A program made the position numbers and the translations under genes. A DNA stretch of 63,269 bases, counting the filler, from Perkinsus chesapeaki ATCC PRA-425 (taxonomy: Eukaryota > Protista > Perkinsozoa), in assembly GCA_013115145.1 (NCBI GenBank). It is 6 parts of 6 records of this genome, joined end to end, with 100 filler letters (N's around TTAATTAATTAA, not from the genome) between each part and the next. Parts side by side here need not be neighbours in the genome. Positions count along the whole stretch, not along the records: positions 1 to 21,398 come from JAAPAO010000595.1; positions 21,499 to 25,356 come from JAAPAO010001349.1; positions 25,457 to 31,790 come from JAAPAO010001094.1; positions 31,891 to 41,872 come from JAAPAO010000909.1; positions 41,973 to 53,110 come from JAAPAO010000857.1; positions 53,211 to 63,269 come from JAAPAO010000907.1. One strand, written 5' to 3'. The notes below the pieces were generated by a model, which was not told where the DNA came from, did no database searches, and was given only the letters and a program-made list of their open reading frames with translations. Within the stretch, counting starts at the first letter, position 1; each line of letters opens with the position of its first letter. This document shows positions 584 to 61,386 of the stretch, one piece after another.

Positions 584-667
584 ACAGCGCGAGAGAACCC
601 TCCACTTGTATTATACAAGTGGAGGGTTCTCTCGCGCTGTAACAGTATACAAGTTGTATACTGTTAC
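584..667. repeat. Two abutting perfect palindromes (28-bp and 14-bp arms, 1-nt centres) flanked by CTTGTAT / TTGTATA
   Basis: 584-611 is the exact reverse complement of 613-640; 639-652 is the exact reverse complement of 654-667. Confidence 0.95.
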
Positions 668-1029
668 TCGCTCTTCATAGCCATAATAGTTGTCTCTCGT
701 TTAAATGTATTATAAACTTCTCTCCAGGTCAAGTACATCTAAGATACTGGTTCAACTCATAGAGTTGTTAAGTTCTAAAGCATGTCACTTCATCACACCT
801 ATGGACTAGTTTATTCGTCATCAGTTATATCTCCAAAGGCGTTAATGAATCGCCACAGACTAGGGGGTCATCGATTCGGGGAAGGAGCGCATCGCAGATA
901 CTCCGCAGGTCACCGCTACCGATCTGGTTTCTCCCGACGCCCGCTGCTGGCTATGCTCGAGCACGGAGCATTTGAAATGTTTCATCCACTTTTCCGACTA
1001 ATTGACAGCAACTAAAGGTTAATAGTATT

Positions 1030-3739: not shown

Positions 3740-6700
3740 TTAATAAAGATGATGATTGATGAAAATGGTAATCGATAATGATAGATCATGTGATAGATTA
3801 GATAGATTCCCCCGACCCATCGAAATTGTCAGATTCAGCATCAACCGAATCTGGATCCTATACAAGGAATGTGGTAAATTAAAAAGGTTATTATTTTACC
3901 TCAGACACGCCATGCACAATTGCCATGATTATATCATCAGCAACTGCTGCTTCTTCTCCGGTGTTATCCCTTCTATTTACCCCTCTGATAGTAGCAGCAT
4001 CTTCTGGACTTGTCCATACAACAATAGTTGAGTCATCTGATACCGTTACCAAGCAAGGAGATCTGAGGCGAATAGACTGATGATCTTTACGCAAATAACA
4101 GTATAACCCTTATAGGAATCATAATTTAATTATTCAATACTAACTTCGAAGTACTAATAACTTACCACACTCAATATGCTAAATATTGTTTAATAATCTA
4201 TTAACATACTATTTACATGTGCTGTACTTTCCCTTCTGAATAATCTATTGATATCATATCCATGTAACTTAGTTCTGTATCAAGACACTACTTTACTTAT
4301 AATGTGTACCGGAAGGAAGACACTGTACCATACCTTTGCACTATATAACCCACTGTGGGTTACTCGCACAATTCCTGTCTATCGCACAATTGTCGTACCA
4401 CGCTATTACTAGCTATCTCTACTCGTGATATTCTACTCATTACCCACTCTGTTTACTGCTCTATCTCTCTTCGGATATATCTTATCCTTATGGTGTTTAT
4501 AACACTGCACCACCTTCCCCAGCCTTACATCATATCATTATCAGTTCCATCATGCTGGCTATGATCAATAGAAGGTAGCCATAATACAGCATTAACTGTA
4601 AGAGAATGTGCTCCACTAATAACTTGTAGAAGCGCACTTGTAGCTCGATGCCAAATAAACACCTGGCATAGTAGGAGCTCAGTGATGACGATATACTCAT
4701 CATCAACCTACTCTAGCATCATCACTGCCTGATAGAACAAGGGAATCTCCATCCCCTCCAAAGGCACATTTAAGGTTAAACCGTCCCCTTGTATGGCCGA
4801 TATACCTGACTACTATAGGAACACTGTTAGCTCCATCTCCTACCGTCGTAATGGTCTACGTTCACGTACATTCCACAACCTTATCATCGTCGGCTTAGAG
4901 TCCAACGCAAAAAGTACCTAACAACACTGCACCGGGACATATTGTATGCTGCTGCTAGCTAACCCAGTTAGGATTGAATGTTGATGGTGTTATGCATGTT
5001 ATGAGTGATGTCTCTGTGATAAGCCTTGCCACACGATACATTACCTAGCACAGCACTCTCTCACAGTTCTTATATCTCCCTCACTCACCGTGAATCCACC
5101 ACCCCCAGTAGATGAGCTATCGTCGGCTGTATCCTCAGTTAAACCAGTTATGGCAGCTAACTGTCTACCAGAAGCAACCCATAAGCTATTATCAGCAGGC
5201 GGAGCGAAGCAAATATCATGCACTCGACCGCGAAGCCGAACTGTTAGTAAAACCTGATATTAATAACACAACTATCAAACCACCACCACCACCGCCAACA
5301 ACAATACCTTACCTCATTTCTTTCTACATCCGATATAACAACAATCTTATCACGACTTCCGGATACTAACTAATTACAGCAAGAACAAGAGCATTCACTT
5401 ACGGTGGTGGTAATGTACTAATCAACCAACCTGCGTCCTGTACCCGGGCCTCCATACAACTTGTGTTATCACTTCAGAATGTACCTCTATATTACAGTGA
5501 GGCCCCCTCATCCTACCATGATCTGAAATATCACACTTAGATCAATCCAAACAAAAGAGTTGTTCACCTTTAGTAGAATTCGATATCTTCCAAACCTTAA
5601 CAGCACCATCATTGGCACCGGAAGCGAGATACGTATCATCACAATTAAAACTAACTACTGCACATTCATCTTCGTGCCCCATAAGTGTATCCAACTAACC
5701 GATAATGAATCGCATCTCAGTAGGACAATTGGTATCGTTCTACATATTTTAAGCATTCCCCATGTCTTTTAGCAGCATCCTCATTCACAACTGACCACAG
5801 TATAACACTTTTATCCTTACCACAAGTAGCTACCATTCTACCATTATTAGATAAAGCCATGTACCATACCTACCACGGATAGGTAAAATGAATGAATGTG
5901 AAGTCAGGACGTACTTGATCAGAGTGCTTCTTGATTATCTGTGCGGCTGCCAAGGTTACTTTAGGAGTAGGACAGTGATGGTCCTGATAATAAACCATCT
6001 ATCACTCATCATCGTTAAGGCTTACCTCAAGTAGAGTAAGTTCATTATGGTGATGATGATAAGAGGTTAAATCATGATTTAGACAGTTATCTAGTTGATA
6101 CTGTGTAGCGTACCTTACCCAGTAGTAGCAGCAGCTCATTTGTTATATATCCTTGTTACCCTAATAATGTCATCAGCCTTCCTGGTGGAACGCATACTTC
6201 TGGTGGTAGTTTCTGTCGTATCTTATCCCATAATTGACTTCTAGATTCCTAAGTATCCACCATTTCCGGTATAGTTCTACCTCCTCTTCACCTACTTCAG
6301 TATCCCACACCTTACCATCACATCCGTCCTCCCCCAGTTCATCATCAAACTCGCTATACGAGGAATACAGTAAACGACTAGAAAGGAGTTAATTAGAAAG
6401 AAAATAATTACACTACTTAGCATCATCATGAATTCTAGATGTAAGTGTTTCATCATCCCTACTAAGCTCTGTCATAGACTGTAGAGCTTTTACAACACTC
6501 AATGTCTCATGCTCATAACATGATTCAACATCGGCGGTATCTCGTAAGTACAAATACTCCCGAAGTGCTTCTAAAAACCTAGACATAATAAAAACGGTTG
6601 GTGGGCACTATAGAGAATACTTCTGTTCCATAATATCGAAAATCATCCGCTTTTTTATCTTGTCGTTTTCGTCGTTTATCTTCAGCACTTGTAGAGCTAC

Positions 6701-7065
6701 AATAGCCTACTTCAACGCATGGATTATGCATCACACTGTAATTTACCTTGTCCCAGTTCCCAAGTTCTATATCCTTCCTCATTATTACTATATCTTCTCT
6801 TGCGGACACACAACCACTTTCCTGTGAAAGGGCAGATGCCGCATTAGTATACCTGACCAGAAAGGATGAGATATAGTATAATTAATACGGATAAAATACA
6901 TTAATATCAATTTATCAGACGCGCATCTATCACCGAGAACTCACCCAAGATGCTCAAGTGTCTCCACCATCATGGATGCCAGCTCCTTGTTCTCTTTGCT
7001 GGCCTATAATAAATGTATTAACATGTTAACATAGTCCCCACCTTCTCATCCCTTGTCCACTTCAT
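3740..7065 (-). CDS. WDR26: WDR26/GID7-like LisH-CTLH-WD40 protein (CTLH E3 complex), multi-exon
   Basis: ELASMMVETLEHLG|YTNAASALSQESGC...DIELGNWDKV (LisH/CTLH with ESGC); YIGHTRGRFNLKCAFGGDGDSLVLSGSDD; VFIWHRATSALLQVISGAHSLTVNAV; LVTVSDDSTIVVW. These match the WDR26 family layout. Ends approximate. Confidence 0.8.
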
Positions 7066-7302
7066 TTCCCTTTCTTCCGAGCTTCCTCTACTATTACTCC
7101 TTCTAGTGTAACGCTTAGGCCTTTTACTACTAGTCGGTGTGGTCGAGTTATGTGGAGATGAGCTTGAGGCAGATGGTGAGGTTGTTGGTGGTGGAGGGGG
7201 TCTTTTACGACTAGTAATGAGGGGGAGTAAGGTTAAAGTTCACTAACCAGAATTGTGATGTACAAGAATATTGGACAACACTTCAACACAATAGTAAATA
7301 GA

Positions 7303-9062
7303 TTATCGTTGCCTTCGAGAATCGCTTCGGCTTCTACTATATCCATTATAAGGGCTTGATGAGTTGTGCCCTCCATCTCGGGACCGTGATCTAGACCTTC
7401 TCCTCCTCCTATCATCGTGAGATAATATCCTTCTATAATGTTTAGGAGATCTACTCCTACTATCATCACTCCGATGGCTATCGCTGGATACCTGATCGAT
7501 TATTGTCATCCAGTCAGAGTAACAGGTCCGAAGTGTGTGCATATAATAATAGTAGAGGTGATTACCGCCGCCTCTGATGCACTTTGCTCACCTCCCTCCT
7601 CGTTGCATCCTTAGATTCATGCTTATGCTTATGATGATGATGCTTATCCTTTTTAGCTTTTCTCTTCTTATCCTTTTTCTTACTCGTTTTATCATCCTGC
7701 AGAGCAAGACAATAACCCAATCCCTATTATCTCTTTATACCTCCTTTGCTTCATTGGCCTCTATAAGCCTTTTAGCATTAATAGCCTGTTCACATATATT
7801 TACCCATCCCCTTATCTCATCAGCAACAGCTTTGGCATAACGAACACCCTGATCACCATTCAACATAGTAGACATTAAGATAAGCCCACCTCAATTGAAG
7901 ATGCGAAAACGGTCCCGAGGCTCTCCAGTTGCTTAGCGGCTTTTAATGCAGTATCTAACAACGCATCATCCTCAACAACAACTCTGTACTTGTGAAGATT
8001 CTCGAAGAACAAGCCTAAGAAGGTAGTAGCATCAGATAATAAGAGTTAGGAAAGTGCGGAGCTTTACCTAGCCTCTTCCACATAACAGCCTGTTGAAGCA
8101 ATAGGTTATCGTCTAGGATGGCATCGACTTTATGATCAACCTATCACATCAATACGTCGATAATACCACACCTGTGAGATGTTGCCACTTACCTCTTCTA
8201 GTCCATCTCGTATCCTACACTTAATGCTTCTCATCACATCTATGGTACAGAGTGAGCACGCCTTCTCAACAGCTTTACGATTCCCTGGATCTTCATCACT
8301 CGTAAGATACTTCTCCAACTCGGTGAGTTGTGCCTGAAGTACCAATGGATGCCACAAGAAGTAAGTTTCATACTTGGAAGCCTAAGTTGGGGTAAACATG
8401 AGGACGGCGTGCCTCTACCATAGAGAAGGCCTCCTTGAAGGTTAGCCCTCTCAAAAACATAATATACCTAAAGAGTGTTCGGCATGGGACTGCTAACTAA
8501 GTCATTACGCTATAGCAATACTGGAGCTTCTCGACACTCCTTTTGAACAATGAACTAATACCCGATTATGTTCATTATCAGTTAATGCTTTATGAATGAA
8601 GCCAAAGGCACCAGGAAGATCTTGAAGGATGTCGTAATCAGGCAGGTCCTTCATACTAACTCGGTAGTACTTAAGGCGGCCCTATTAACAATAACATAAC
8701 AATTACTACTAAGTCATCCTATACCTCATATTTAGCTGGTAATTGAGGATGGGCTATAACGACATGAGTGATATTATGTTCGATTAGTAACCTGATTCAC
8801 TTAACAACTATTTTGATGATAAGTATAGCTTTATGGCAGGTCACCGTGGGGCTAGATTCGAAGCGTAATACTAATATCTACGACTAAATAAACAGAATGT
8901 ACTCCTTCACCTCTTGTCAGTGGCTGCCTCTTTAGAGCCCACATAGAGCCTTCTTAAAAGTGTATCATCATCAGATACGGCATGCAAATGACATGCTTGC
9001 TCGTGATAGAGTGCTTCAAAGAAGGAGTAATGTTTATCAAGCTCTGCTGATGATATAGCCAT
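7303..9062 (-). CDS. Dual-specificity protein phosphatase with Arg/Ser-rich C-terminal tail, multi-exon
   Basis: RLYVGSKEAA...HNITHVV...KYYRVSMKDLPDYDILQDLPGAFGFIHKAL...VLVHCSKGVSRSSSIAIA (HCxxGxSRS)...EARRPHVYPNLGF; last exon RRRRSRSRSRDGG...SRSRSDSRRQR*. Confidence 0.85.
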
Positions 9063-9210
9063 ATCACCAGCACTAACGGCACCACTTATAACAACCACTA
9101 CTAGAACAACTCAACATCAATGATCATGATGATGAGTTAATACATAATATTATAGCAACATGCAGGAAATAGTATATTAATATTTTGTGTAATAATACAG
9201 ATAATATTAA

Positions 9211-10356
9211 CTAGACCAAAGTAAGGCTCTCATAAGAGTCATTACCATGTTCAATAGGATTAGTAATGATTTTCTGTTTATAAACCTTATTATATAGTTT
9301 AGCGTTAACACAAGCAAAATGAATAAACTTGCCCTTATTGGTTACATCATACTTCACGAGATGACAGAAACTATAACACCGATAGTTATCCCATACACCA
9401 ATTATAATGCCATCCTTAATATCGTATAGAGCGAATTGACCTAGGGTACCCAGGGCCAGTGTCAGCCTGTCATTGATAGTTATAACTTGGGCTGAAAATA
9501 TCTGTGAAACATCATTTTTCCATAGTAGCCTCCAAGACTTCACTGCCACCATACGTCCGTCATTCAGGTCTGCCTTATAGTGCCGTAGGATACTATCATC
9601 TGCATCAATGGTATAAACCATAACCTCTTGAGAGCCATCAGGTGATGCTGATACCGCAAAAACACCACTGAAGAACGGTTTCCCAGTAGAGGTAGTCAAA
9701 TATACAGGAGAGTTCTGTGATGATATCCCAGTGCTTAGATTCACAACCCCTATAGATGCCGGTCCAGATAACCATGTAATAGCTTTCATATTATGTACCG
9801 TTGAAAACTGACGTTTATATGTTATCAAGGGAACATCACCACACATACGACCCAGTGATGTGAAACTGCCGCCATCACGTCGGTTTATCTGAGCAATTGT
9901 CTTATCCTCTAAAATAGCAAAGACATATCCGAGCATTGATTCGGAAGCTGTGATAGCCTCTACTAGACATCCTATAGAGGGTGTATCAAACCTGCACCAT
10001 GAGGTTACTATTGTGATATAATATGAACCCTTGGACAGGATATACAGTACTTCACCATCTGATGCTAGATCAATGATAGCATCATCTTGAGAATGTACCC
10101 GTACTTCCTCCTGTAGGAAACGTACAGGTCTATATGATGATACTAAGAGATAGTCCCATACCGTAATAAGAAGATCAGTGGATGTATCATAATCATCACT
10201 TTTTACTTTTATATAGGACAATCTCAACAACCATAGTGGTATCGAATGAGGCTCATATGTATGCAGCTTCCAAGTGGAAGTAGACAAGGCTTCACCACCC
10301 TGCCGTGGAGTAATGATTACTAATCCCTCAAAAGACTGAAACAGACTGTCGTACTA
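9211..10356 (-). CDS. Uncharacterised protein, long single exon, beta-propeller/WD40-like pattern
   Basis: 358-aa ORF with repeated beta-strand patterns (IIDLASDGEVLYILS, VEAITASESMLGYVFAI, FAVSASPDGSQEVMVY); frame stays open up to an AG acceptor near 10356. Family not recognised. Confidence 0.5.
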
Positions 10357-10403
10357 TTTAACTGAACACCTAATAGTAGATACGATAAGAAGATACATGA
10401 GCA

Positions 10404-13400
10404 TTAATCATCATTATCCATATAATGCTTTATATCATCTATCTCATTGAGATGTTCCTTTACCTCATTAAATGCTTTCCGTATCTAACATATCACTAAT
10501 TCTTACACCTTCCATTACCTCCTCTCTACCATATCCTTCAAAGCCTTGCCATCTTCATACTTATATTCACCACCATTCCCACTCTTACCAGATGACGTCC
10601 ATTTAGACAGTGGAGGGGTGGCGCGATTATGACCACTTAGTGGTCTCTGACATGGACACTAACCCCAGGTATATAATAACTATGCACCTTGAACTTTTCG
10701 ATTGTACCAGCAACCATGGCCAAGGTTCTGGCACTCTCTCTAAACTTCGCCGTCTTCCTATCAGCAACAACAGCTTCAGCATAGATCTCCTTTCGTTCAG
10801 CCAGAGATAGATCTCGCCATGGATCAGAGCATGGTGGACACTCCTATATGCAAGAGGCATGGGTTCGATCCCGGCACTCGCCTTTTTTACCACATCAATT
10901 GGTGTTTTAGGATCCCAATAAGGAAGGGTATGTTGTCCTTGTATACTTTGTGCTCTCTCTGTATAATCCATACCACTATATTTATGATAGACATCTCTCA
11001 TCTCCTGTAAATGTTCCATAAAATGGTCCATAAACCACATATACCTACTAAATCCTACAACCAGCTCAATCACTACTACCTCTACATTACTTGTTATGAA
11101 ATATCTTATCATCAGAAGAGCGTTTAGTTAATACCCGCACTACAAAGAAGTCACGAGGATTAACATCTAATGGAGATTATCAGTCATCATCGAGGGTGGT
11201 CCTGGTTACCGTCAATATCATCTATATCATCACATTCACCCGAATACACTATATCAATCTCAAATAGATATCTAATACTGCATCTAATAAAATGTTAATA
11301 TTATCCTTACCTATGAACAGGTTTTAAATCATCAGATATATCATTAGCTTCATCAACTGCTGGACATAATTCTTCCAAAACACTTTTAACTTTCCGCATA
11401 ACCCTACCATCTCGTACCTCATATACCTTTCCACCACCATACTGCCAATAGTCATTCTCACCATCTCCTCCAATTCATTTAACCTTGGTGTCAATTCGTT
11501 ATACGCTTTTGATGCTTCCAACTCCTCCCATATACCATCATCTACACTATCATTACTAATAGGAACAGTGGGACTGCGTGGGACCTAGGATAACCATTGT
11601 CCTATCATTACCGTATCACCCCAGCCACCTACCACCAAGGACATGGTAAAAGCTCTGCCGAACACTATCCTATCCCCACTTCTCAATTTAATACTCTTAT
11701 CAACTAACTTCCTATTTACTATTACCCTACACTTCGATGCTGGTCCACATAACCTCAACTCTACCTATCAACCATTACTTATTATTATTACTACCATCTA
11801 CTGCTGTTGGTATTTTTACCTCAATACCATCTTGTGTCTCTAATGTGGCTAAATGCCTTGTCATACCTAGACCTTTTAACACTATGGTATTATCAGATGA
11901 CGACCCTATTGATACTACTGTATTCAATGGTATACGATATCTGATAGAAAAATAGTAAAATACACCAAGATAGATCACACCCAGGTGCCCGAAGACGGGA
12001 CTGGAAGGGGATTTTCCACAATGTTAAGCCCGTAAAACAGCGAAGAATTCAAATCCGTCGGAAAAAAATTAGCGTATGAGCCCCCTCGCTGGACGATGAT
12101 GATGGTCCAGTATAACTAATATATGATCAAAGTCCCCCAAGGTTGTCATCATGTCGCATATCTTTAAAGTGAAGTAGTACACCACTACAGTGCATTGAAT
12201 GGTGATGGACATACCAATAGGAGAGAATGGGACAGGACTATTCAGACCTTCGCTACTATGGTTTTATGATACTATACTTATACCACTCTTCAGGCAAAAT
12301 TCAATGAGCTCAGAACTGGTTACAGTTTCTGGATATATCCGCACCATCTATATATTACATTAACCTGCCAGATAATAAAGGATCTGGTGATACATTATGG
12401 AGATATGGGCATCCATCAGAGGTGGTATCACCAACGCCTTTAACCTATTATTAATATCATATATTAATACATATACCAAACTAACATCTGCTAAACCATA
12501 GTTATTGAGTAACTTTTCCCGTTCAATAGCCATCTCTCTAGCCTCAGCCAGTTGTGCTTCATACCTAGTATCATCCATATATCATCCTATATAATATATT
12601 ATATCACTTCCCCTTCATCGACATCATAACCTTCTCCCTCATTTTCAGCTCCTCCTGTAGTTGCTCATGTACCCCAGGATCCACTGTCTACCATTCCTTC
12701 CCCCTTCCACCTTTCATTATTACCTTGATGCTCCTCCCTTTCCATTTCCATCTGTCTATGTTCATCTATCTCCCTTCTAAGATTCTTGATCTCCGCCTGC
12801 AGCTCCTGTATCATATCTATCACCATAATTCCCCCTCCCTCCCCCACCATCACCACCTACTCTGTGTCCCAAAATTCTGCTTAGCCGAAGTCTTAATAGT
12901 CTTGACACTAGATGCAAATCTCAGTGTACCTATAAACACACTAACCGCTGCCTGCCTGCCTGCCTGCCATTGCCATTATTATCACTTAGTGTCTCTTCAG
13001 CCTCAGATGGTGATGGACTTATTGCAGCTATCATAAAGGTACGGCTATTACCCGATAATGAATCCTTGAGAAGGAAGGTCAGCTTAGAGTTACGGAAAGG
13101 TACGTGATATCCCTCAGGTGCTGCCAGCACTGTGATATACAATACTTACAATATAAACCACTTACATGCTCTACCAGCCTTCTCTGACAGCTCCCTTATA
13201 CATATCCCCAGATTGGTCAGACTTTGGTTAATAGCAGTACCCTCTTTAAGCCTCTAACACACCTATTATTACCAATATTTAATAATAATCATTACATCCC
13301 CATCCGCTCCCGTCTTGCTCGTTCTCTCACTACCCGATAAATCTACTAGGTTAAGTCTTGAATTTAATGATACCTAATAACATGTATCCTCTCTCCTCCC

Positions 13401-19015: not shown

Positions 19016-19075
19016 TAGTTGGCTCGATATAGTTGGTGTTGCGTTAGTTGTTGTGATAGTACATGCCTCCACAGT

Positions 19076-31996: not shown

Positions 31997-36146
<4,150 letters not shown>

Positions 36147-50333: not shown

Positions 50334-52326
50334 TAACCTTTTTAATGGTCAGGGGAAGGAGAACTCGTGCAAATCCAGCGATACTATCAGATCACCTCTG
50401 GGCACATGGTACGGCCCTATCGGCCGAGCCGGGCCTGGAGCGTTGTCGAGTGGACTTCGACGGAATTTTTTTTGTGAAAGATCTTGAGTACGGCGATGTC
50501 TAGTCTATTGCTAATACACCTTGAACAGTGCTCGGCACCTGGGGTTTCCTCACTCCTTTAGTTCGAGGTCAAGATTAGACTGACATTGGAAACACACTAC
50601 TCACCTATCCTGGAACGCCGGGTGTTCATGGAGTTCACGCTTTGAACCTAGAGATAACCTAGCGTCCGGGTTTCGGGTTGAGTATTGCTGTTCCCTCCCG
50701 TAATCCCGTATTCGTTGAGATTTCATAATAAATTCCTGTGAAGCGCTGTGTCACGTGCCTCGAAATTTCGAGAACCACGGTGGTTCACCACGGTAGAGAA
50801 TCTCTCAGAGAGATAGGTCCTATATGTTTGTCCCAGGAAGGCCAGGTCAACCATCACGAAGGGTCCCACGGTGGGACTCCCGCCGTGGCACTCCCACGCT
50901 CGTTGGAACTCCAGGTTTCGTGAGTAGGGCGCGGCACGCTCCTTCTATGTGCGGGTTTCTACTGTGGAAAGCCCCAGTGTAATTTCGGGTTTCGCTCGAG
51001 AGCGCTCCGTTCACTGGGCCCCCAGCCCCATCCCCAGTGTCATGGGCGATGACTCATCGTTACTGACGATGACAACAAGCGTCCAAGGGATCAGTCTAAT
51101 AATACGCCTGCTAGCGGCGCGAGACCGGATGCAAAGTGGACCTATTACGTAACGTAATTTACGTCTCGTCGCATGGTGGCCGACTCTTCGTCACGATCGA
51201 GAATGTGACGTTCTGAATGCCTACTAGTGAACAAACCATTAGTTACTAAAATATCACCATTGAGCGTGCGAAGTAGTGTGCACGTGCATTCGCATGCGTT
51301 GATTGGAGGAATACGGAAGAGGAACACGCTCAAGGAAGTTCACTGAATTAACTCCTCCTGACTGAATTGACATAAGGCAGCACTGCTGCTGCCGGAGCAG
51401 CGTTCCTGCTGCGGGGATAACGCCACTGATGAGAAATGAGAGCTTTGAGAAATGTGAAGTTGCAAGTTGCGAGTCGCAACCATCCTGGCATATGAGTCAT
51501 ATGATATGACAGAAAGGAGCACTCTTGTCGTGACCGAATTCTGAGAACCTGTCAAAAAGGTCAGGAAGCGACTAGTCTATTCGCTACCCCACAATGTGGA
51601 GCCCACACTACATGGGGTAACATACGCTTTATGTCTGTGCTAGCCGGTGACACAGACATATAGCGTATTCTTGGAAAGGCTTTCTAGGAAAGTGTCTGCC
51701 GGGTTAGACACTTTCTTGTTAGGGTCAGGGCCTTGTTAGGGATCGGGTGGGTCCTGAGACTGCCGACTCCAGACTCGCAACGTGGAAGTCTCCATTTAAA
51801 CGGCGCGGGCGCGCCACGCGCTCTCTCGTGTCTCTCAAGCCGAAGCCCCCAGCGACACTGCCCCTATCCCCGAGGCTAATGGTTGAGAAGTAGGCCCCGT
51901 CGTTTACCTATTACTACTTACCTATTATTTGCAAATTACTACCGAATGCATGCTCTTGATGCAGCATGAAACGTGACAGGGCGATGAAAGGACGGTCGCG
52001 AGTCGCGATCTGATGGGTTGATATTGGTTTGTAAATATCTTATTTTTGCTGTCAAGCGATTAGTACTTCAGGTAATACGACAGGAAATGGGCTAGTCTAA
52101 GTAGCTGTCTGCGTATAAGTAGCCTACTTATGCGCAGACAGCATACGGCTCTTCCACCGTATGTCCATTGGTGTGCAGCCGCGCGGCGGGGGGGACCCAG
52201 CCTGTGCCACTGCCGGAGGCATCACGGCTGAATAAATTGACCAGTAATGATCGAATATAATAATTTTTTGGTTAGAGCCGTTACAGAAGCTTTACACTTT
52301 GTCTAGCGTCTTTCCGCAATTGTAGC

Positions 52327-53110
52327 GTGTGGATTCTCACCGTCAACTTCCACAGGCTTACCAGCTTAACGTGTTGGACCACTTTTCTCGCCGGTGGAGA
52401 ACTCCATCCGGAGTCTTCGGAAATCTACCCATCACCGCCCCAAGTCATCAACGAGTATATCGCTGATGCATCTGCTACCGACCACCCGGAGGGTGCTTGG
52501 TACCAGCATCAGGCTGGTTCTGGACCCGGTGTATCCATTTTGGGAGATTGGCTTAGCAACATTGCTACTAGTCTCATACCTTGGGCGGATCTGGAGCTCA
52601 ACAACGCGGCGAATGAGATTTATGAGAACCTCTATGGAGATATTCACGGACAAGATTTCTACTATGATTTTATCCCGAGACATGTTGCCACCTTCGAGAA
52701 TGATGGCAAATGGAACAACTTTGAAGGTCGGTGTTTCAAAAATATCAAAGCGAGGTCTATTAAACAAGATGATGGTACCATCAAGATCGAGTCTGACTAC
52801 CAGAACGCTGTCTCCTGGTCATGCGCAGAGTACGTTATCTTCGGAAATGCCGCGGATTTCCACATGCAGGCCGAATTCACCTTTGGGAAAGAAACATTGG
52901 CTTGGACGGCTGACGACAGAGGTGTTCACGTATTGAACCTGCCGCAGGTTACCTGCGTACGTCGATCGTGAATGCAGTTGAAGGATTGTTCAAGACTAAA
53001 AAGTTGTTTGACAGCCATGATGGTGTCGTAGAATTCCGTACAGTTCTCGTCAGAGAACATGTTCAAGCAAGTGTACGCCGAGGCCGGAGGAGTTCATCGT
53101 GTACTTGGCG
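52327..53110 (+). CDS. Hypothetical protein, truncated by gap
   Basis: 214-aa protein-like ORF (DFIPRHVATF...FEGRCFK...CAEYVIFG) ending at a GT donor; a further exon fragment runs to the gap. True start unclear. Confidence 0.55.
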
Positions 53111-53210
53111 NNNNNNNNNNNNNNNNNNNNNNNNNNNNNNNNNNNNNNNNNNNNTTAATTAATTAANNNNNNNNNNNNNNNNNNNNNNNNNNNNNNNNNN
53201 NNNNNNNNNN
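53111..53210. other. Assembly gap with artificial linker
   Basis: N run with TTAATTAATTAA at 53155-53166. Confidence 0.99.
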
Positions 53211-53239
53211 CTGACTTTCTATCGGAAATATATGGGTTT

Positions 53240-54032
53240 GTGAAGTATAGTGAAAGCGACCCCCTCGTGCCAGGAGAACGAACCGGCGCTGTCCTTGATG
53301 TTACGGTTGATGGGTACTATAACAGCGAACGCTGTCAGGTGGATTTTGAGGAATGTAGTGAAGCGGTTGCAAGCCTCACTGCTGAAGACGGTCAGAGGCT
53401 TCATTGTGCATTCCTTACTGATCGTAGTCCCATCCACTGCAAGTACCCCGAGGACGGTCTCAACGGGGGAAGAAGGGGAGAAGAAGGCGCAAAAGATGGT
53501 GTTCCCAGGTTCCCATCCTCTTTATCCGAACCTGCCCAAAGGACTTAGGGAAGTTTGTAGAGAGAGATTTGGGGACGCAGAAATCTCAGGGAAACGCCAT
53601 GAAGATCTCTTGCAGATGCTGTCAGAATGCGATGATTTTAGAAGCCAGAAGACTATTCTAGAAGAGCAGGCAGAAGCCAGGGGGGATGTTGTTGTATACG
53701 GGGTGAAGTTTCACCCAGAGTTAGCGCCCATAGAAGCAGCTTATCGTTCCATAGCGAAGTCTCTTAGGGTATCTAACACGTCAGGGTCCTCTCGGGGGTT
53801 CGTTGAAAGAGTAGAGGCCGCACAAGGTGCCGAAGACCTGACGATCACGCTCATTCGGAAGCATTTTAGATCTGCACGCGAGTACCTGCAACATTACAGG
53901 GAAGGGAAAACGATGGAAGAAATAGAGAAGTTGAGAGCTCAGAAGCGCAAGCACAGGGGTGCAGCGCCTGGCCTCCGAGTTTCGCCCGAGCGGTCCCAAA
54001 AGGGAAAGTACCCAAGGAATCGCCTAGGGTGA
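53240..54032 (+). mobile_element. IS630/Tc1/mariner-superfamily DDE transposase remnant with a frameshift near 53470
   Basis: Frame A: DGYYNSE...FLTDRSPIHCKYPEDGLN. Frame B: PKGLREVCRER...DFRSQKTILEE...VKFHPELAPIEAAY...IRKHFRSAREYLQHYREG. Confidence 0.8.
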
Positions 54033-54039
54033 AATTTAG

Positions 54040-57000
54040 CCGCTAAATCTATACTCAAAGAAGTCCTTTACGTTTCTAATGGTTTCTCGTACTTGTATTT
54101 GTCAATCACCAGCAATTTTTATTGGCTTGACAGGTTCCATGCCATCCTGGGCTCGAGCGCAAATGCTGCCCGAGGAGTCGAAAAGGTGCAAAAAATTTTT
54201 TCTTCCAAAATCGAGTCCGTGGAATATTTTAACGATATGATAGTGCTAGCAGAGTTCCCATGCCAAATTTCAGGTTGATATGAGCACTAGTTAAGAAGTT
54301 GAGCTCGCCACACGAAATTGGGTCTTTAGATTGCGCGTACTGTAGCTGGTGGTGATAGTAATGGATCAAGTCCTCTTTGGAACCCATTTCATCACACTTG
54401 TAAAAACTCAACGTCTATCAGGCTTGGAAGACTTGTATCGGACCTCTTCCTTGCGGAAGGGTTCATATGCGCGAACCAGGGCAGAAACCCTACATTTCGT
54501 GCATTAGATAGTAGCCTTAAAATAGGAAGTAGACGCAAAACATCGCTCATAGACGTGACCTTCTTCAAGGGTTCTTGCTCTGTTGAGGACTGGTTAGTTT
54601 CTGATGATTTTGAGCTGGGAGATCACGCTCCGATTAGCTTCTCACTTACTGAGGCTCAGCCTTCGTTTTTGGCTGGACTGCAAACAGAAGAAAACGTCCC
54701 AGCAGGCTGTCTAAATGATCATAATTTCTACAAGTGCAATTGGGAGAGGTATAGGAGCTATCCGGAAACTCTTAAACCCTCTTACGTTGATTCTCTTATT
54801 TACTCGTCAAAGGATCTCATCGAAAGGAGCGAATCATTGATTGCTAGGGTACAAGAAGCAGCAATAGTAGCGTGTCCGAAAAAGCGCGGAATTCCTCGCA
54901 AGATGAATGCAAGGCCACAGTGGTTTGACTCGGAGTTGAGAAAGAAACGCTCGGAGCTCAAACGTGCTGAGCGTATTCAATCTTCTTACAAACGAATGTT
55001 GCGAGCCGAATATCGTACACTGATAATTAATAAAAAGGAAGAATTTCTCCAACGGTGCTTCACATCGCTGGAGCACGCTCACGTCTCTGAGATCCACAAG
55101 AAAGCCAGAGGACCCAAGCCCCGTTTGATAGCAAGGATACTCGAGGACGACGAAACTATTGAACAGTCTGCTAATCGCCTAGCAAATCATTACGTTGGAA
55201 CAGGGGCCTCCACAGCGAGTAATGTTTTGGGTCCTAGATACTTGGCCAGTCATCGTGAGTTGTCTCAACCTTCTACTCCGGCGAACTTTTTGGTATTGAC
55301 AAGTGAAGAGGTGAAGTCATTAATTGAAAAGAGGCGTAAAAACTTCTCTACAGCGCCAGGAATTGATGGGATTCGTTTGAGACATTGGCATGAGAGTCCG
55401 GATTGGGTAAAGGCTGAACTTGGAAAGCTGATTGGGTTCAGCTTCTCAAATGCGTATCTCCCGCCGTCGTGGAAGCACTCACGAACCATTATGATAGACA
55501 AACCCAAACGGGACCGAAAGAGTGTGAAATCTTTGAGGCCCATCGCGCTATGTTCAAGTCTCTCGAAAATCGCTGAATCATATGTGCGGAAGCAGCTCGA
55601 GAGTTCTCTTGAGAGTATTTCTCAATCTGGGCGCCAACACGCCTATTTGCCCGGCAAGAGCGCCATCGATGTTATAAGCGCCTCAGCGCATTTTATCAAG
55701 GAGAGAAAACGTTGGAGTATAGTCTCTTTAGATTATAGCAACGCGTTTGGTGAAATTTCTCACGAGGCGATCGTAAATGGCTTGAAAAAATTCGATGTAA
55801 GTACTTGTACTAGGATGTGGATCTCTGAGTGGTTGGCTGATCGCACATCTGAGCTGAATTACGGCAGCACCACTGTCCGCAGAGTATGTTTTGATGGCAA
55901 AGGAACACCTCAAGGAGCTCTCCTCTCTCCCTTTTTATTCATTATAAGCACAGATGATGTTGGTGAGAAAGTTGAAAAGTTTGCAAATTGGCTCAACGAA
56001 GTAGAAGCTTGTGAATGGAAATGTTTTGCCGACGATTCATACCTATTAATTTCGTGGAGGGTCGGTGCTACTGATGAAGAGATAAGAGCGGCCCTGAAGA
56101 AAATCATTGATTTCACTGAGCGTGAATCTGCAGTGGTTAACCTCAAGTTGGACTCCAGTGGAGTCACTCCACGAAGATGGTTTTATTAACAAACCTCAAG
56201 AAAGTCCTCAGTGGTTTTCCGGGCTACTCTGACACTCTACGTCAGCTAGGATGTACCCTTACGTCAGGTCTTCAGTTCAAGAAGCATCTAAGCGGAAGAC
56301 TGGTACTCGCGAAACAAATTGGGAATATGGCGTTACGGCAATGTGGGGCGCTCATGGGGAAGAATCGAGGCGTCTCTGTCGGAATCTTCACCGAAATATA
56401 CAATAAAGTACTACTACCAATCATTCTATATGCCTATGAAATATGGGGAGGAACTATTGCAAATAAAACCATAAGAGAAGAGATAGATCTTTTGGGGGCT
56501 AGCTTCCTTAGAAGAGCTTTAAGGGTTAGAAGGAGTACACCCCGTCCACTACTATATATTGCCTCTGGAGTGATGCCACTATCGCAATTGGTGGCAGAGA
56601 GAGTAGTTCTGGCTCACATCTACAAAAGACCAATGGACATGCATATGAAAGGGAAGGTAGGTACTACCAAATTTCGAGAGCTGCTGGAGGAGTGGGGCTT
56701 CCCCACCACTCATCATCACTGTGAGGATAATACACCTGGAAAAGTTGTCAAACGCGCTGATACCAAATTTCGTCTTTCTCTATTGAGAGATTACCATATT
56801 GTTAGAATGGTATCCTCTTTATCTGAACCCTTACGAAGGGCTGTACGAAGTTCGAGGCAGAGAGAATGCTTGCAGTGCGTTGTGCGGACTAGCAAAAACG
56901 GTGCTTTCTTACAACTCTTATCTGGGCACTCTCCTCTGTTAAACGCCTATGTGTATCGGCCCGGCATCAATGTCGCGGCTCATGATATAAACTGTAACCA

Positions 57001-57190
57001 CTGTGGAGTAAAAGATGATAGCTCACACTTATTGCTCGATTGTAAGCGACCGGATCGGTCACGTTTTCGGCCTTCCTTTGTGGACGAGAACGGAACTCTC
57101 GGGCAGATAACAATTTGTGTGAAGCGATGTGCAGCGGTCGCTAGCTTTTGCGAGAAAATATTCTTTAGACACTTGCGGAATGGAGGTTGA
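54040..57190 (+). mobile_element. APE-type non-LTR retrotransposon ORF2 (endonuclease-RT-Cys/His knuckle), disrupted
   Basis: APE: AGGDSNG..PLW, SLIDVT, GDHAPI (upstream stop). RT: APGIDGI, RPIALCSSLSKIAE, LDYSNAF, GTPQGALLSP, FADD. C-terminal CNHC...SHLLLDC. Frameshift at 56158-56171. 5' boundary approximate. Confidence 0.92.
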
Positions 57191-57430
57191 GAGCATTAAA
57201 AAGCCTTACTGAGCTCATGGGGATGCCTAATCGAGTGAAGCTGTGTGGCAAGACTGAATACTTCGAGTCCTAGAGATGAAGCTTGTGGTCTCGCACCTTG
57301 GGAGCCATTGTGTTTTGGGTAGTTGTACACAGGCCCTTGGTTGCGTAAGTGAATTCTGCTAGGAGTAAGATCTCTTGAGACTAGCTACATTCGTTTTTGG
57401 TAAACCCTACAGTGACAGTAACAGTATAGG

Positions 57431-58050
57431 TATTAAACTCTCGCTCTGAAGCTGCACATGGAATGGATAGTCTAACTAAGCCAATTTTCGGCGTTGGACT
57501 ATAAACTCACACACACGGTTGCGATGACAGTCTTGAACGCCCACAGTTATTGCTATAACTGGGCCTGAATAATCTTTCAGTGATAAACTCTACAAGGTGG
57601 GCGTTGCGACTTTCCAAGGGCCTTTAGGACCTGAAGTTTAGGTCAGTAGGCCGTATTCAGGGATGGAAGAGGGAGGGTTAAAATTTTGCAAGAGCTACCT
57701 GTCACTATTTGGTGACCTTATGGTCGAACCAGGCTCAGCTCGACAACGGGCCGTGCCCGACCAACACATCGTATTTGTTATTAATCTTCAGTTAGAAGAT
57801 GCCCCTATGGCGGGTGCTTCAATGTAGTGCAAATCCAATATCTTTGTTTCGTGCATTGTGTCTGAGATTATTTGGGGTGTGTGTGCGGCGCTCCCTTAAT
57901 CTCAGGAGATTTCACAGCCGCTACATTCGCAAGCTCATTCAGCTTATCAGTATTAAACTCTCGTTCGGCAGCTGCACATAGTATGGATAGTCTTACTAAG
58001 GCTTAGTAACTAAGCCTTCTCCTGCGTTGGACTATCAATTCACATACACA
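57431..58050 (+). repeat. Local diverged duplication: 57431-57516 versus 57951-58050
   Basis: Both read tattaaactctcg..gctgcacat...tggatagtct.actaag..cc...gcgttggactat.aa.tcaca.aca; the second copy has a 14-nt insertion. Confidence 0.85.
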
Positions 58051-58842
58051 CACACTTCCTCAATTGGGGGAATACAATTGTTACTCCATTACTACTCATT
58101 GTTGTGAGACAGTATCACGAACCCACAACTACCATACATGAGCTAGCCGGTGTCGGGTCAGGCGGCCCGCCTATAATATAGGCCCTATATGTGTCGCAGT
58201 ACCGAAACGTCCCTCTATTGGTTGCCCGGTGTGGCTGGTCTTCAAGCTGCGCCAGTATGAGCCGAGCCTCACTGCTTGTCCCTGATCACTGTCCCCCAAG
58301 ACTCTCTGATCAAGAGGTTGACGGCCAAGCGCCTGCTTGGGTTCGAGAGAAAAACAAATGATGATGTCGATTGAGGTGCACCTAGTGACGTTCAATCCGG
58401 TGGCGCGATGAAACGAAGTGCAATGCAGCTTCTTCATTACGGTTCTGCGGCTTCAATCGCGAGGGTGGCACGAACCACGAGGAGCCACCATCCCGGTTTT
58501 CTGTGGGATGAGTACCCATATACCTCCAGCTCTCTAATGACAACTCAGGGCATACCACTGCAGTAGGCCCTACTGAGTAGGGCACGACCGAGCCTGGGGG
58601 CCGAGTGGTTCCGCGGTCAGAGTGTGCTGTAACCATTGTGATCGTTAGGATCAGTTGCCGTCGGGAGACACGACTGTCGTGAAACGCCGCCGGCTGATCG
58701 TGGGGAGGCGCTATCCTAGATGGCACTGTGCATGACCTTACTGTTTCGTCGATAATGTTTCGGAAACTCAACTCTGGAATGGAAACATTGTTTCCATTAC
58801 AGAGTTGAGTTAAACTTTAACTGTTAAAGTTCATCTTGAATA

Positions 58843-59928
58843 ATGATTGGGCTCAGCATGCGTCTAACAATGATGATAATGTTCAGTGAACGGTCGATTA
58901 TGGCACAAGTTATCAGGGTAAGGACAGAGCGCGTGTTCATCCCAGCTTATGGTTATGCTCTCCTTGGTGATGTCGCAGTCGATCGTCAAGAAATGCACGC
59001 TCTGGTCGACACTGGAATATCTGCCTTATACTTCACGTGGAAATGGTGGTACGAGCATTATACTCATCCTGGGGCATGCGCCACCCTCATTACTGGATGC
59101 TATCAATGCCCAGAAGGATGTTACATTGGTCCAACAACTCCTATAACCTATGCCGATGGTACTCGAGTTGACATATTCTCGAACGAAGGACATTTGGCTT
59201 TCGCACTGGGTGCGGTCAACTCCATCCAGTTTGGCGTGGTGAGCGGTCAAAACCCGGGTCCTGACCGACATCCGCCAACGAGCTCTATTGGCCTCGGCCT
59301 CAACGTCATCCCTGGTTATCGTTCCCTGATGGATCAACTACAGGGGAAAGTAGCTAGCCGAACCTTTGCTATGTATCTCAGAAGTTCATCGTCTGCTCGC
59401 ACTAAGGGCGAACTTCTACTCGGTGGTGGTGATCCTAGGGTATACGTGGCACCTCTCCATTTCGTTCCACTGCTAAGCCAACAACAATTCCTCGTGACTA
59501 TTGATACGTTACAAGTTAGCGGTCGAGCCAAAAGATCGGGAATTAACATGCCCATCTTGGTCGATACCGGTGTCCAAGGTTTAATAATCCCTCGAAACTT
59601 TGCTACCGATTTCATAAGGGATATATCTGATCAAGCGTCGGAGATGGCTAGAGCCAGAGTTCATATCGCCTGGGTACCTGCTCAAGGAATATGGGTTTTT
59701 GACTGCTCATATATCTCCTATTTCCCAATGCTGTTGATCGGCTTAGGCCGCGGAGGTTCTGTTCTACTAACCGTGGCCGGTAAGTACTACACCCGTAATA
59801 TTGGTGGCCTGTGCAGCCTAGGCATGACTCTTGGAGACAAGTGGTCTCTGCCCGAGTTCATGTTCATCGATAGATACGTAGAGTTTCGACCAAGTCAGAG
59901 AAGGATAGGCTTTGCCAATCTGGTGTAG
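58843..59928 (+). CDS. Pepsin-family (A1) aspartic protease, intronless, likely secreted
   Basis: Two catalytic motifs LVDTG (ALVDTGISA; ILVDTGVQG), flap ITYADGT, IGLGL, FAMYL, ELLLGG; hydrophobic N-terminus. Confidence 0.93.
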   Translation: MIGLSMRLTMMIMFSERSIMAQVIRVRTERVFIPAYGYALLGDVAVDRQEMHALVDTGISALYFTWKWWYEHYTHPGACATLITGCYQCPEGCYIGPTTPITYADGTRVDIFSNEGHLAFALGAVNSIQFGVVSGQNPGPDRHPPTSSIGLGLNVIPGYRSLMDQLQGKVASRTFAMYLRSSSSARTKGELLLGGGDPRVYVAPLHFVPLLSQQQFLVTIDTLQVSGRAKRSGINMPILVDTGVQGLIIPRNFATDFIRDISDQASEMARARVHIAWVPAQGIWVFDCSYISYFPMLLIGLGRGGSVLLTVAGKYYTRNIGGLCSLGMTLGDKWSLPEFMFIDRYVEFRPSQRRIGFANLV

Positions 59929-61386
59929 CGATCGATCGTCTTGACATCATTATGAGTCTTTAACCTACCAATCTTCATCCAACTATCCTGTATTATCGCA
60001 TGTATTCCGTATGCGAGCGGAGCCGCTATTCGTCAGCCAGTGACAGCTTATTATAAGAAATCTAGCTTTTTTCGCTTGAACTGCTACGAATCTTGTCGGC
60101 ATACTCACTCGTATGTTCAGATTTGGAGTGACGTAACTATCTCGACGATGCTCGCTTGAGTATGTCTCCTCTGGAAGCTCTCCAGGGCAAATAGTGTGTA
60201 CAGCTACTGCCCGCACAAATAGGAAAGTAGTCTAAGACAGTTGTCCTGTCACAGTTCTGTACGCACGGTGCGCAACGCATCCCCTTGTATTGTCCCATAC
60301 GTGTGAGGTTAGTATTACTAACTTAGTACCCCACAGTCTTCACACATTGGTGTGAGAGATATCTGTCGTCTACTTATCTCTACTCTTAACCTTAGTATAT
60401 TAGATCTAAGGTTTGGATGATCTAACTTAGATCTTCCCTTGCGTTATGCCAGTAACGGGACAGATGTCACTGGAAGCTCGCGAGTTCGTAGATTATTTCG
60501 AAACGACTCGTGAGCAGGAGTTGGTATGTCAAGATATATGAATGCAGTTGGAACACCCACACCAATGCCGCGAAGGCGAGGTCTTCAAGGCTCTCTGTAA
60601 ACTGTGATAATGCGGCACTCATACAGGCCTTACAGGCATGATACCCGGGGTACAAAGCCAAGATGAAAAGATACCTCCTAACAGTACAACAAGATGGCCT
60701 TGACCTTGCTAACGCAACGGATCAATGGAAGGGAGTATCTCTAAAAAACAGACGGTATTCGAAAGAGTCTACGGTAGGGTCTCCGAAGAATATACTGTGC
60801 ATACGCAGCCAGGACAAACTTTTTTCTGGGCTGCGCAGTGCTTCATACTTCAAGTAACTTGATCCGACAGTCGCATTGATATGCCGAAAAGTTAATAATT
60901 TGATTAATATTTCTTCTGGACAATGCATAGAGGAGAAGCTGAGCCCGAGGCAATCTCATTAACCAGCTCATCATCTTCGCATTAGTAACGGATTAAAGTT
61001 CTTTCGCTCACAATGACCCAGTGACGTTAATACTTTTGTTGTAATATAAAAGGTATCTTGAATTCTTTGTAGTGCGGTACTCGGTCCGATTGCTCATAAT
61101 CGATCATAGGCAGGGCGGAGGAACGAGCTTTCTTGATTACACAACTCATCACGAAGCCGGCATCAAGTGAGTGCCTATTCATTGAGCGCCGACAAGGTCA
61201 GCGAGAACCGCCTGAGCTAAGATGATCATATAGCGTCGAGCAATTAAAAAGTTGTGTCATCAGCCTTCTTAGCTTAGTTGTAGAGCACCCTCTTAGTAGG
61301 CGGGAGGTCGTCGGTTCCTTTCCGACACAAGGCTAAAGCAGTGCTTTTGAAGCATCGCTTCCTATATAGTACACGTAAACACAACT

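What the first reader, a model, noticed from the sequence alone, without database searches (positions are those of the whole stretch)
584..60329. Recurrent '7-8-7' footprints: signature of a hairpin-forming, 8-bp-TSD cut-and-paste element excising across the window
Seen: exact pattern TSD[1-7]+revcomp(TSD)+TSD[2-8] at 30037-30058 (CTAAGATC), 56151-56172 (GACTCCAC), 57994-58015 (TACTAAGC) and 58808-58829 (AGTTAAAG). Variants occur at 605-660 (CTTGTATA, long arms) and 27639-27668 (ATGCCGAT, doubled middle). Copies with 1-2 mismatches occur at 51144, 51587, 60260 and 60308. An exact match fixes 14 bases, so chance expectation is about 63,000/4^14 = 2e-4 per window. Established: hAT transposases (Ac, Tam3, Hermes) make 8-bp TSDs and leave hairpins on the flanking DNA; their footprints replace the element-adjacent base with its complement and add palindromic nucleotides. 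Inference: an hAT-like family, not encoded in this window, has been very active, and repair here favours annealing of the two opened hairpins. That gives a stereotyped +14-nt, frameshifting scar at roughly one per 6 kb.
Basis: partly seen in the sequence, partly recalled or inferred. Interest (0 to 1): 0.82.

Follow-up and report, generated by a model that had tools for sequence, protein, structure and literature searches.

The report
Stereotyped transposon excision scars in Perkinsus
DNA of a Perkinsus-type shellfish parasite carries about two dozen scars of one shape, an 8-base site expanded by 14 bases into forward, inverted and forward copies, likely left when hAT-type jumping genes cut themselves out and the cell joined the two hairpin-sealed ends through their shared 8 bases, which would make past jumps readable in the genome.

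Summary
The pattern is real and commoner than reported: 8 exact 7-8-7 scars (reader: 4), 25 with up to two substitutions (0.58 expected) and 5 long-arm variants. No other unit length or offset comes close. The window is six joined contigs; homologue names point to Perkinsus. Three comparisons show the scars are insertions over a single 8-mer: a paralogous repeat, other LINE copies lacking exactly 14 nt, and a split RT motif. Contigs from two public studies carry the scars unchanged, so they are not assembly errors. The shape is what flank hairpins give if nicking is one base into the flank (Ac-type footprint rule), the hairpins are opened far from the tip, and they anneal over the 8-bp duplication. 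Flush-hairpin (8-8-8) and 5'-overhang (8-6-8) shapes are absent. Target sites lean to nnYTARnn, like Buster/Charlie hATs. No element or hAT transposase was found and no genome was held, so family membership is inferred. Scars are clustered (21 of 25 in 9.8 kb), not spread one per 6 kb. The scan noted the same scar before on other Perkinsus DNA. Verdict: new variant of a known kind.

The parts
30037..30058 (.). exact 7-8-7 scar, 8-mer CTAAGATC
   Evidence: spanned with 0 differences by a contig of run X2
56151..56172 (.). exact 7-8-7 scar, 8-mer GACTCCAC; frameshifts a LINE ORF2
   Evidence: contigs in X1 and X4 lack exactly 14 nt at 56152, while X2 and X3 cover the place without that deletion
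57994..58015 (.). exact 7-8-7 scar, 8-mer TACTAAGC, inside a copy of a high-copy ~90-bp repeat
   Evidence: the paralogue at 57430-57516 lacks 14 nt here; spanned by X1 and X2 contigs
   Evidence: spanned by X1 and X2 contigs
   Evidence: spanned by X1 and X4 contigs
58808..58829 (.). exact 7-8-7 scar, 8-mer AGTTAAAG
   Evidence: spanned by X1 and X2 contigs
41538..41559 (.). 7-8-7 scar, one substitution
50863..50884 (.). 7-8-7 scar, one substitution
51144..51165 (.). 7-8-7 scar, one substitution
57622..57643 (.). 7-8-7 scar, one substitution
60308..60329 (.). 7-8-7 scar, one substitution; a loose end in X2 shows another copy of the local repeat with a single similar 8-mer
4347..60433 (.). twelve 7-8-7 scars with two substitutions, starting at 4347, 35701, 50793, 51039, 51200, 51459, 51587, 51672, 54027, 60236, 60260, 60412 (about 0.6 expected by chance)
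584..667 (.). long-arm variant, 8-mer CTTGTATA: left hairpin arm 29 nt, right arm 15 nt, joined over 2 shared bases; net +48
27639..27668 (.). out-of-register variant, 8-mer ATGCCGAT: arms 15 and 8 nt, joined over 7 bases of a flanking near-repeat; net +22; splits the conserved RT motif of a tyrosine-recombinase retroelement
   Evidence: spanned by an X2 contig
58755..58811 (.). long-arm variant, 8-mer ATGTTTCC: arms 6 and 24 nt (one mismatch), 3 shared bases; abuts scar 58808
52091..52142 (.). probable long-arm variant: right arm 20 nt with one mismatch; left copy of the 8-mer carries two substitutions
38987..39036 (.). weaker long-arm variant: arms about 14 and 11 nt, about 3 bases between them unexplained
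57430..57516 (+). empty-site control: paralogue of the repeat at 57950-58049, with a single 8-mer where the other copy has the scar
54330..57190 (+). LINE-like ORF2 (endonuclease, RT) in two frames, with the break at scar 56151; a host of a scar, not its agent
25667..29794 (-). broken tyrosine-recombinase (DIRS/Ngaro-like) retroelement that hosts variant 27639; a host of a scar, not its agent

Best explanation
The scars are 14-base insertions that turn one 8-base site into forward, inverted and forward copies, and they are likely excision footprints of hAT-type cut-and-paste transposons whose two flank hairpins were likely opened far from the tip and annealed through the duplicated 8 bases. 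Steps: (1) Shown: the ancestral state is a single 8-mer T. (2) Inferred: an element inserted and duplicated T. (3) Inferred from geometry: on excision each non-transferred strand was nicked one base into the flank and the flank was sealed as a hairpin. The left end then reads T1-7 followed by revcomp(T), and the right end reads revcomp(T) followed by T2-8. (4) Inferred: host nucleases opened or unwound each hairpin on the 3' side, 8 or more (up to 29) bases from the tip, leaving long 3' tails. (5) Inferred: the two tails always share a perfect 8-base complement, so annealing there, trimming and ligation gives T1-7 + revcomp(T) + T2-8 every time. Annealing at a chance 2-7-base match further out gives the long-arm variants. 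(6) Clustering likely reflects local hopping or open-chromatin targeting, plus selection against +14 frameshifts in working exons.
For: The shape is exclusive. For exact matches, unit 8 with one base lost on each inner side gives 8; units 7 and 9-13 give 0; six other offsets give 0. The 8-8-8 (flush hairpin) and 8-6-8 (5'-overhang opening) shapes give 0 even at one mismatch. Odd-centred palindromes with arms of 7 or more number 44, against 12 even-centred and 3-6 for gaps of 2-5. The scars are insertions: paralogue alignment shows a 14-nt gap; contigs in X1 and X4 lack 14 nt at 56152; and homologues keep the RT motif D-H-x-x-A-Y-R-Q in one piece (13 of 14 printed proteins gave the motif) while the window splits it across frames by a 22-nt scar. 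Long-arm variants keep the same apices and copy up to 21 further flank bases, with 2-7 shared bases at the joint in 4 of 5. The 27639 joint uses a natural flanking repeat out of register, which points to homology-directed annealing. Ac/Ds footprints are centred on the complement of the element-adjacent base and mostly carry microhomology (PMC5873905, passages), and cleavage at the flanking nucleotide is inferred for Ds (PMC1978519, passages). Target bias: pyrimidine at position 3 / purine at 6 in 38 of 50 strand-symmetrised sites (p=1.5e-4); central TA in 7 of 25 (p=0.0014); similarity to nTCTAGAn reached by 0.1% of 5000 random draws (post hoc). Charlie-related hATs have TSDs NTCTAGAN/NYYTARRN (PMC3014272 Table 1), and TcBuster has nnnTAnnn (PMC10512250). 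Contigs of two studies carry the scars without gaps.
Against: The TIR-plus-TSD scan found no convincing element in the window; its single 8-bp hit is AT-rich, low-complexity sequence. No hAT or MULE Pfam family was hit in 175 ORFs (26, 149), and I recognised no allele with an element at a scar among the rows shown (both tables were cut). No paper found places hATs in Perkinsus. Merlin, which also makes 8-9-bp TSDs, is reported in P. marinus (PMC8101967). The Hermes-type T2/A7 bias is not significant in the 25-site set (18 of 50, p=0.12), though it is in the 19-site set (p=0.016). In the hosts described in PMC5873905, Ac palindrome arms of 3 nt or more make up 2-47% of footprints, so a dominant 8-nt-annealed product is not the textbook outcome. 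Units 6 and 7 show small excesses at relaxed thresholds that are only partly explained.
Confidence: 0.78

Rival explanations
1. Same hairpin-and-anneal route, but the agent is a non-hAT DDE transposase with an 8-bp duplication (a MULE-, Merlin-, P- or Dada-related family) that nicks one base into the flank.
For: MULE Muta1 forms flank hairpins and makes 8- or 9-bp TSDs (PMC5499845, PMC5225508; passages). Merlin ORFs with an intact DDE motif and eight Dada families are reported in P. marinus, whereas no hAT report was found.
Against: The Muta1 hairpin is given as 43+43 nt (flush, at gel resolution), its excision is about 90% precise and it has no target preference. The window has no 8-8-8 and no 9-unit scars and has a target bias. 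Dada TSDs are 6-7 bp and target small RNA genes. No flank hairpin is known to me for Merlin or P (recalled).
Confidence: 0.11
2. No element ever stayed at these sites. A transposase-like or domesticated nuclease cuts targets with an 8-nt stagger; fill-in stops one base short, each end self-ligates into a hairpin, and the two hairpins are repaired as above.
For: This gives formally the same hairpins and the same product (inference from the geometry). The window has 30 scars and no recognisable element. A domesticated hAT that makes hairpin-capped breaks is known (Kat1, PMC4763223, passages).
Against: It needs an unprecedented reaction. Kat1 is site-specific and cuts at element ends. One mobile element can leave many scars in series, so a high scar-to-element ratio needs no special cause. 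A 63-kb window is too small to show absence.
Confidence: 0.07
3. Generic short-range template switching during replication (an inverted triplication) with no transposon involved.
For: Such events also give forward-inverted-forward patterns (established knowledge, recalled), and the long-arm variants vary in length.
Against: It predicts a spread of lengths and offsets. Here only unit 8 with offsets -1/-1 occurs, the long-arm variants keep the same 8-mer and apices, and the sites share a target bias.
Confidence: 0.03
4. Assembly, library or chimera artefact.
For: The window is a concatenation of short contigs, and fold-back chimeras make palindromes (recalled).
Against: Contigs from two samples and two studies span the scars without gaps. 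Scars carry 0-2 substitutions, which implies ageing in the genome.
Confidence: 0.01

Closest known systems
Ac/Ds (hAT) excision footprints in plants, S. cerevisiae and Candida albicans (PMC5873905, PMC1978519; passages read)
   Same: 8-bp duplication; palindromes centred on the complement of the element-adjacent base; microhomology at the joint; occasional long arms (up to 20 nt reported in yeast).
   Different: There the footprints are short or heterogeneous: arms of 3 nt or more in 2.3% (Candida), 20-30% (Arabidopsis) and 47% (yeast). Here one product, joined over the whole inverted 8-mer, makes up 25 of the 30 recognisable scars and is fixed in a natural genome. Short plant-type footprints would be hard to see at this scale, so their share is unknown.
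Hermes and Buster/Charlie hAT transposases (PMC10368747, PMC6900584, PMC10512250, PMC3014272; passages read)
   Same: Non-transferred strand cut first, hairpin on the flank, 8-bp TSD; the Buster/Charlie-type target consensus (nnnTAnnn, NTCTAGAN) resembles the scar 8-mers.
   Different: No transposase or TIR was found here; the match of target consensus rests on 25 sites and may mix several families.
Ascot-1 footprints in Ascobolus immersus (Colot et al. 1998; only the reference-list entry was seen, content recalled)
   Same: Strongly biased, palindrome-bearing hAT footprints in a microbial eukaryote.
   Different: A single locus studied experimentally; I could not check whether its commonest product has the 7-8-7 shape.
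MULE Muta1, and RAG/Transib coding-end hairpins with P nucleotides (PMC5499845, PMC5225508, PMC6941560, PMC6900584; passages read)
   Same: Hairpins on the flanking DNA, opened by host enzymes.
   Different: Flush hairpins would give 8-8-8 (or 5-5-5, 9-9-9), which is absent. Muta1 excises mostly precisely, and RAG/Transib duplicate 5 bp.

Membership tests
hAT excision footprint | 8-bp target-site duplication | tested here: met
   Only unit 8 is enriched. Both apices need T1 and T8 on both sides. Empty sites hold one 8-mer.
hAT excision footprint | Palindromes centred on the complement of the base next to the element (nick one base into the flank) | tested here: met
   All 8 exact and all 5 long-arm scars fit, two of the latter with degraded copies. 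8-8-8 and 8-6-8 are 0. Rule as described in PMC5873905 and PMC1978519.
hAT excision footprint | Flank-derived inverted additions with microhomology at the joint | tested here: met
   Overlap of 8 nt in standard scars; 2, 7, 3 and 2 nt in four variants; one variant has about 3 unexplained bases.
hAT excision footprint | Target preference nTnnnnAn (Ac/Hermes type) or nnnTAnnn (Buster type) | tested here: inconclusive
   Central TA 7 of 25 (p=0.0014), Y3/R6 38 of 50 (p=1.5e-4), T2/A7 18 of 50 (p=0.12); small, post hoc set.
hAT excision footprint | A TIR element with an 8-bp TSD at the same site in another allele, or elsewhere in the genome | tested here: inconclusive
   None in the window. None recognised among the listed loose ends over 14 kb laid in two calls, with tables cut. 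No genome held.
hAT excision footprint | A hAT transposase (DDE, CxxH, BED finger, C-terminal dimerisation domain) in the genome | not testable with these tools
None among 175 window ORFs.
MULE (Muta1-type) excision | Flush flank hairpin (43+43 nt), which would give full 8-8-8 or 9-9-9 products | tested here: not met
   0 such sites at up to one mismatch; chemistry from PMC5499845, at gel resolution only.
MULE (Muta1-type) excision | Mixed 8- and 9-bp TSDs without sequence preference | tested here: not met
   No 9-unit scars at up to two events; target bias present; PMC5225508.
Transib/RAG-type excision | 5-bp duplication and a cut exactly at the element border | tested here: not met
   Unit-5 count is 1 against 1.03 expected.
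Merlin or P element excision | 8-bp TSD | tested here: met
   Unit 8; Merlin TSD 8-9 bp and presence in P. marinus from PMC8101967.
Merlin or P element excision | Excision through flank hairpins | not testable with these tools
   No such chemistry is described in the passages read; P leaves element-derived overhangs (recalled).

The most novel reading that the evidence does not exclude
Perkinsus has a hAT-like nuclease that writes these scars without a resident element: it cuts preferred nnYTARnn sites with an 8-base stagger, the ends seal into hairpins, and a dedicated repair route anneals them over the 8 bases. That would be an element-free mutator that stamps +14-nt palindromes into hot regions of the genome.
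Probability: 0.07. Interest if true: 0.85.

Novelty: new variant of a known kind. Interest (0 to 1): 0.48.

Why it matters
Cut-and-paste excisions are normally invisible in a genome sequence because footprints are short and varied. Here one product is self-identifying (14 constrained bases), so a simple scan can count, map and roughly date past excisions, recover target-site preferences without the element, and supply polarised insertion markers for population work. The scar also records repair chemistry. It implies hairpins opened well away from the tip and joined over 8 nt of homology, in a genus where one species is scored as keeping Ku70, Ku80 and Lig4. That makes it a natural test of what decides short P-nucleotide joints versus long-tail annealing. 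As a recurrent +14 frameshift it is also a mutational force: it breaks at least two retroelement ORFs in this window.

Tried and rejected
Whole-genome scan: no genome is held, so every count is for this window only. TIR+TSD scan for units 5-10: only weak, mostly AT-rich chance hits. Pfam on 26 + 149 ORFs (the latter the longest of 205 remaining at 72 aa or more): no hAT or MULE family. A second, 6-bp scar class: 4 exact 5-6-5 matches against 0.065 expected. The one at 26583 is the conserved RNase H motif with no length change against homologues; 12589 is low-complexity; 10310 lies in an open frame; 60846 is untested. I do not claim this class. Unit 7: 20 sites at up to two events against 5.6 expected; 4 overlap 8-bp scars, 4 are low-complexity, and 12 are unexplained, mostly outside the hot region. 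Not claimed. Unit 8 at three events: 23 against 8.25, not counted as scars. Plant-type short footprints (7-2-7): 3 of 42 after filtering, no clear excess over other base classes, although unfiltered counts were above background. Loss of NHEJ as the cause: not supported for P. marinus; Artemis is not in that table. Metagenome scan with a repeat-derived pattern, to get more Perkinsus DNA: 0 matches. Laying runs on 26300-30300 to find empty paralogues: the region is single-copy, identical in X2 and uncovered in sample S1. Longer homologues of ORF 52370-52933, to test scar 52936: none. The Tc1/IS630-like ORF at 53213-54032 was rejected as the agent: Tc1/mariner elements duplicate TA and make no flank hairpin. 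Literature: no description of this scar, or of hAT excision in Perkinsus, in searches of the open-access library, which lacks most subscription papers. Colot 1998, Yu 2004, Zhou 2004, Huefner 2011, Lazarow 2012 and Hickman 2018 were not read, and their footprint tables or supplements may already show this product.
Full report
1. Observation. The window is six contigs joined by artificial N-spacers. A protease encoded in it has named homologues only from Perkinsus chesapeaki and P. olseni (5 of 5 named hits, 48-72% identity), and a transposase-like ORF gives the same genus (10 of 12 hits). I therefore read the source as a Perkinsus-type alveolate; the species was not determined. No genome is held, so all counts are for this window. 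Exact matches for units 7 and 9-13 are 0, and so are six other offsets of unit 8. The sites are clustered: 21 of 25 lie in 50700-60500, while 5000 uniform permutations never exceeded 16 in 9.8 kb.

2. The scars are real insertions. The repeat at 57950-58049 aligns to its paralogue at 57430-57516 with one 14-nt gap over the scar. The LINE ORF2 changes frame at 56151; contigs in runs X1 and X4 lack exactly 14 nt at 56152, while X2 and X3 cover the place without that deletion. Whether the shorter form is another LINE copy or an empty allele cannot be told. At 27639-27668 a 22-nt variant splits the RT motif that homologous proteins keep in one piece; a separate one-base loss upstream hides the net frame change. 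Contigs from two samples and two studies bridge 57994, 58169, 58808, 60236, 60260, 60308 and 60412 without gaps, and sample S1 also bridges 58561. One X2 contig matches 26300-30300 without a difference and may be the window's source. These are assembled contigs, not raw reads, but an artefact would not age by 0-2 substitutions or recur across studies.

3. What the shape says. Both palindromes have a single unpaired centre: the left centre is the complement of T8 and the right centre is the complement of T1. Both ends therefore once carried the full 8-mer, that is an 8-bp duplication. If the non-transferred strand is nicked one base into the flank and the flank is sealed as a hairpin, the left end unfolds to T1-7 + revcomp(T) + revcomp(left flank), and the right end to revcomp(right flank) + revcomp(T) + T2-8. 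Opened on the 3' side, the two tails share exactly 8 complementary bases, and annealing there gives 7-8-7 (inference from the sequence). A flush hairpin would give 8-8-8, and opening on the 5' side would give 8-6-8; both are 0 at up to one mismatch. The general two-hairpin grammar finds interior length 8 dominant (13 sites in the relaxed scan, none in two simulations). Five long-arm cases keep the same apices: arms of 29/15, 15/8, 6/24, about 14/11, and 8/20 nt, with 2, 7, 3, no and 2 shared bases at the joint. Tails therefore run well beyond 8 nt, and the joint is placed by homology; at 27639 a natural flanking near-repeat was used out of register. Odd-centred palindromes (44) far outnumber even-centred (12) and gapped ones (3-6 each).

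4. Which agent. Published Ac/Ds footprints are centred on the complement of the element-adjacent base and mostly show microhomology (PMC5873905, passages), and cleavage at the flanking nucleotide is inferred for Ds (PMC1978519, passages). [quoted passage not shown] The MULE Muta1 also hairpins the flank, but its product is given as 43+43 nt, it makes 8- or 9-bp TSDs without preference, and it excises about 90% precisely (PMC5499845, PMC5225508, passages). The scar 8-mers are biased: Y3/R6 in 38 of 50 symmetrised sites, central TA in 7 of 25, and T2/A7 in 18 of 50 (not significant). This resembles the NTCTAGAN/NYYTARRN TSDs of Charlie-related hATs (PMC3014272, Table 1 passage) and nnnTAnnn of TcBuster (PMC10512250, passage) more than Hermes nTnnnnAn (PMC10368747, PMC2803484, passages); the comparison is post hoc. 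Against a firm assignment: no element in the window, no hAT or MULE Pfam hit in 175 ORFs, no recognised occupied allele in the rows shown, no paper found with hATs in Perkinsus, and Merlin and Dada families are reported there (PMC8101967, PMC3706591, passages). So the scars work like hAT footprints; that a hAT made them is likely but untested.

5. Repair. Table S1 of PMC6635534 (supplement rows seen) scores P. marinus 3 of 3 for Ku70, Ku80 and Lig4 (P. falciparum 0 of 3), with MRE11 and the POLA/POLQ group present; Artemis is not tabulated. Loss of classical end joining is therefore not the obvious cause. I infer that the difference lies in where hairpins are opened: far from the tip, exposing the built-in 8-base match. 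The share of short, plant-type footprints cannot be measured here (3 of 42 filtered cases), so 'dominant' holds only among recognisable scars (25 of 30).

6. Rivals. Another hairpin-forming DDE family (0.11); an element-free staggered cutter giving the same hairpins (0.07); template switching (0.03), which cannot explain one length and one offset; artefact (0.01). A 6-bp class looked possible (4 exact against 0.065), but the one case testable against homologues is conserved coding sequence, so it is not claimed. A modest unit-7 excess at two events is only partly explained.

7. Novelty. Hairpin-plus-microhomology footprints of hATs are known. Seven searches of the open-access library found no account of a fixed, stereotyped +14 scar in a natural genome, or of hAT excision in Perkinsus. 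Key subscription papers (Colot 1998, Yu 2004, Zhou 2004, Huefner 2011, Lazarow 2012, Hickman 2018) were not read, and their tables or supplements may show this product at single loci. Earlier notes of this scan describe the same scar on other Perkinsus or protist DNA (e1-9764471, e1-9958387, e1-9584337, e1-7223745, e1-9883554) and a 7-bp analogue in a fungus (e1-7649278, e1-9955687). These are unchecked AI notes, seen after my reading was recorded, and are not counted as support. Verdict: a real feature and a new variant of a known kind; interest 0.48.

Noticed in passing
window 21399-21498, 25357-25456, 31791-31890, 41873-41972, 53111-53210: Five artificial 100-base spacers (N runs around a six-frame stop motif) join six contigs, so distances across them are not genomic.
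   Followed up: yes
window 21958-25222: A DIRS/Ngaro-like tyrosine-recombinase retroelement with a long RT/RNase H ORF and a recombinase in two frames; no scar at up to two substitutions.
   Followed up: partly
window 25667-29794: A second, broken YR retroelement with several frameshifts; covered in X2 at about half the depth of other single-copy DNA and uncovered in sample S1, so possibly allele-specific.
   Followed up: partly
window 53213-54032: Tc1/IS630-like DDE transposase ORF with homologues named from P. olseni and P. chesapeaki, frameshifted near 53465; a degraded scar (54027) sits at its 3' end.
   Followed up: partly
window 57243-57914: Very high summed contig depth over the LINE 3' end and the adjoining ~90-bp repeat: a high-copy, possibly SINE-like family.
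   Followed up: no
window 52276-52971: ORF of no Pfam family; exact scar 52936 lies near its end and changes the frame. A search for longer homologues found nothing.
   Followed up: partly
window 60390-60436: Other copies of a local repeat have 10 bases where the window has 45, around scar 60412: possibly two nested scars.
   Followed up: no
window 60846-60861, 50774-50789, 51234-51249: 5-6-5 matches within or beside the scar-rich region; a minor 6-bp class is not excluded.
   Followed up: partly
window 58840-59928; 15540-15986; 17979-18323; 32379-35423; 42778-43612: Host genes or exons: aspartyl protease (Perkinsus homologues at 48-72%), Mak16/L28e, RRM, DEAH-type helicase, glutathione S-transferase.
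   Followed up: no
window 30919-31176: Tandem array of about 60-base units.
   Followed up: no
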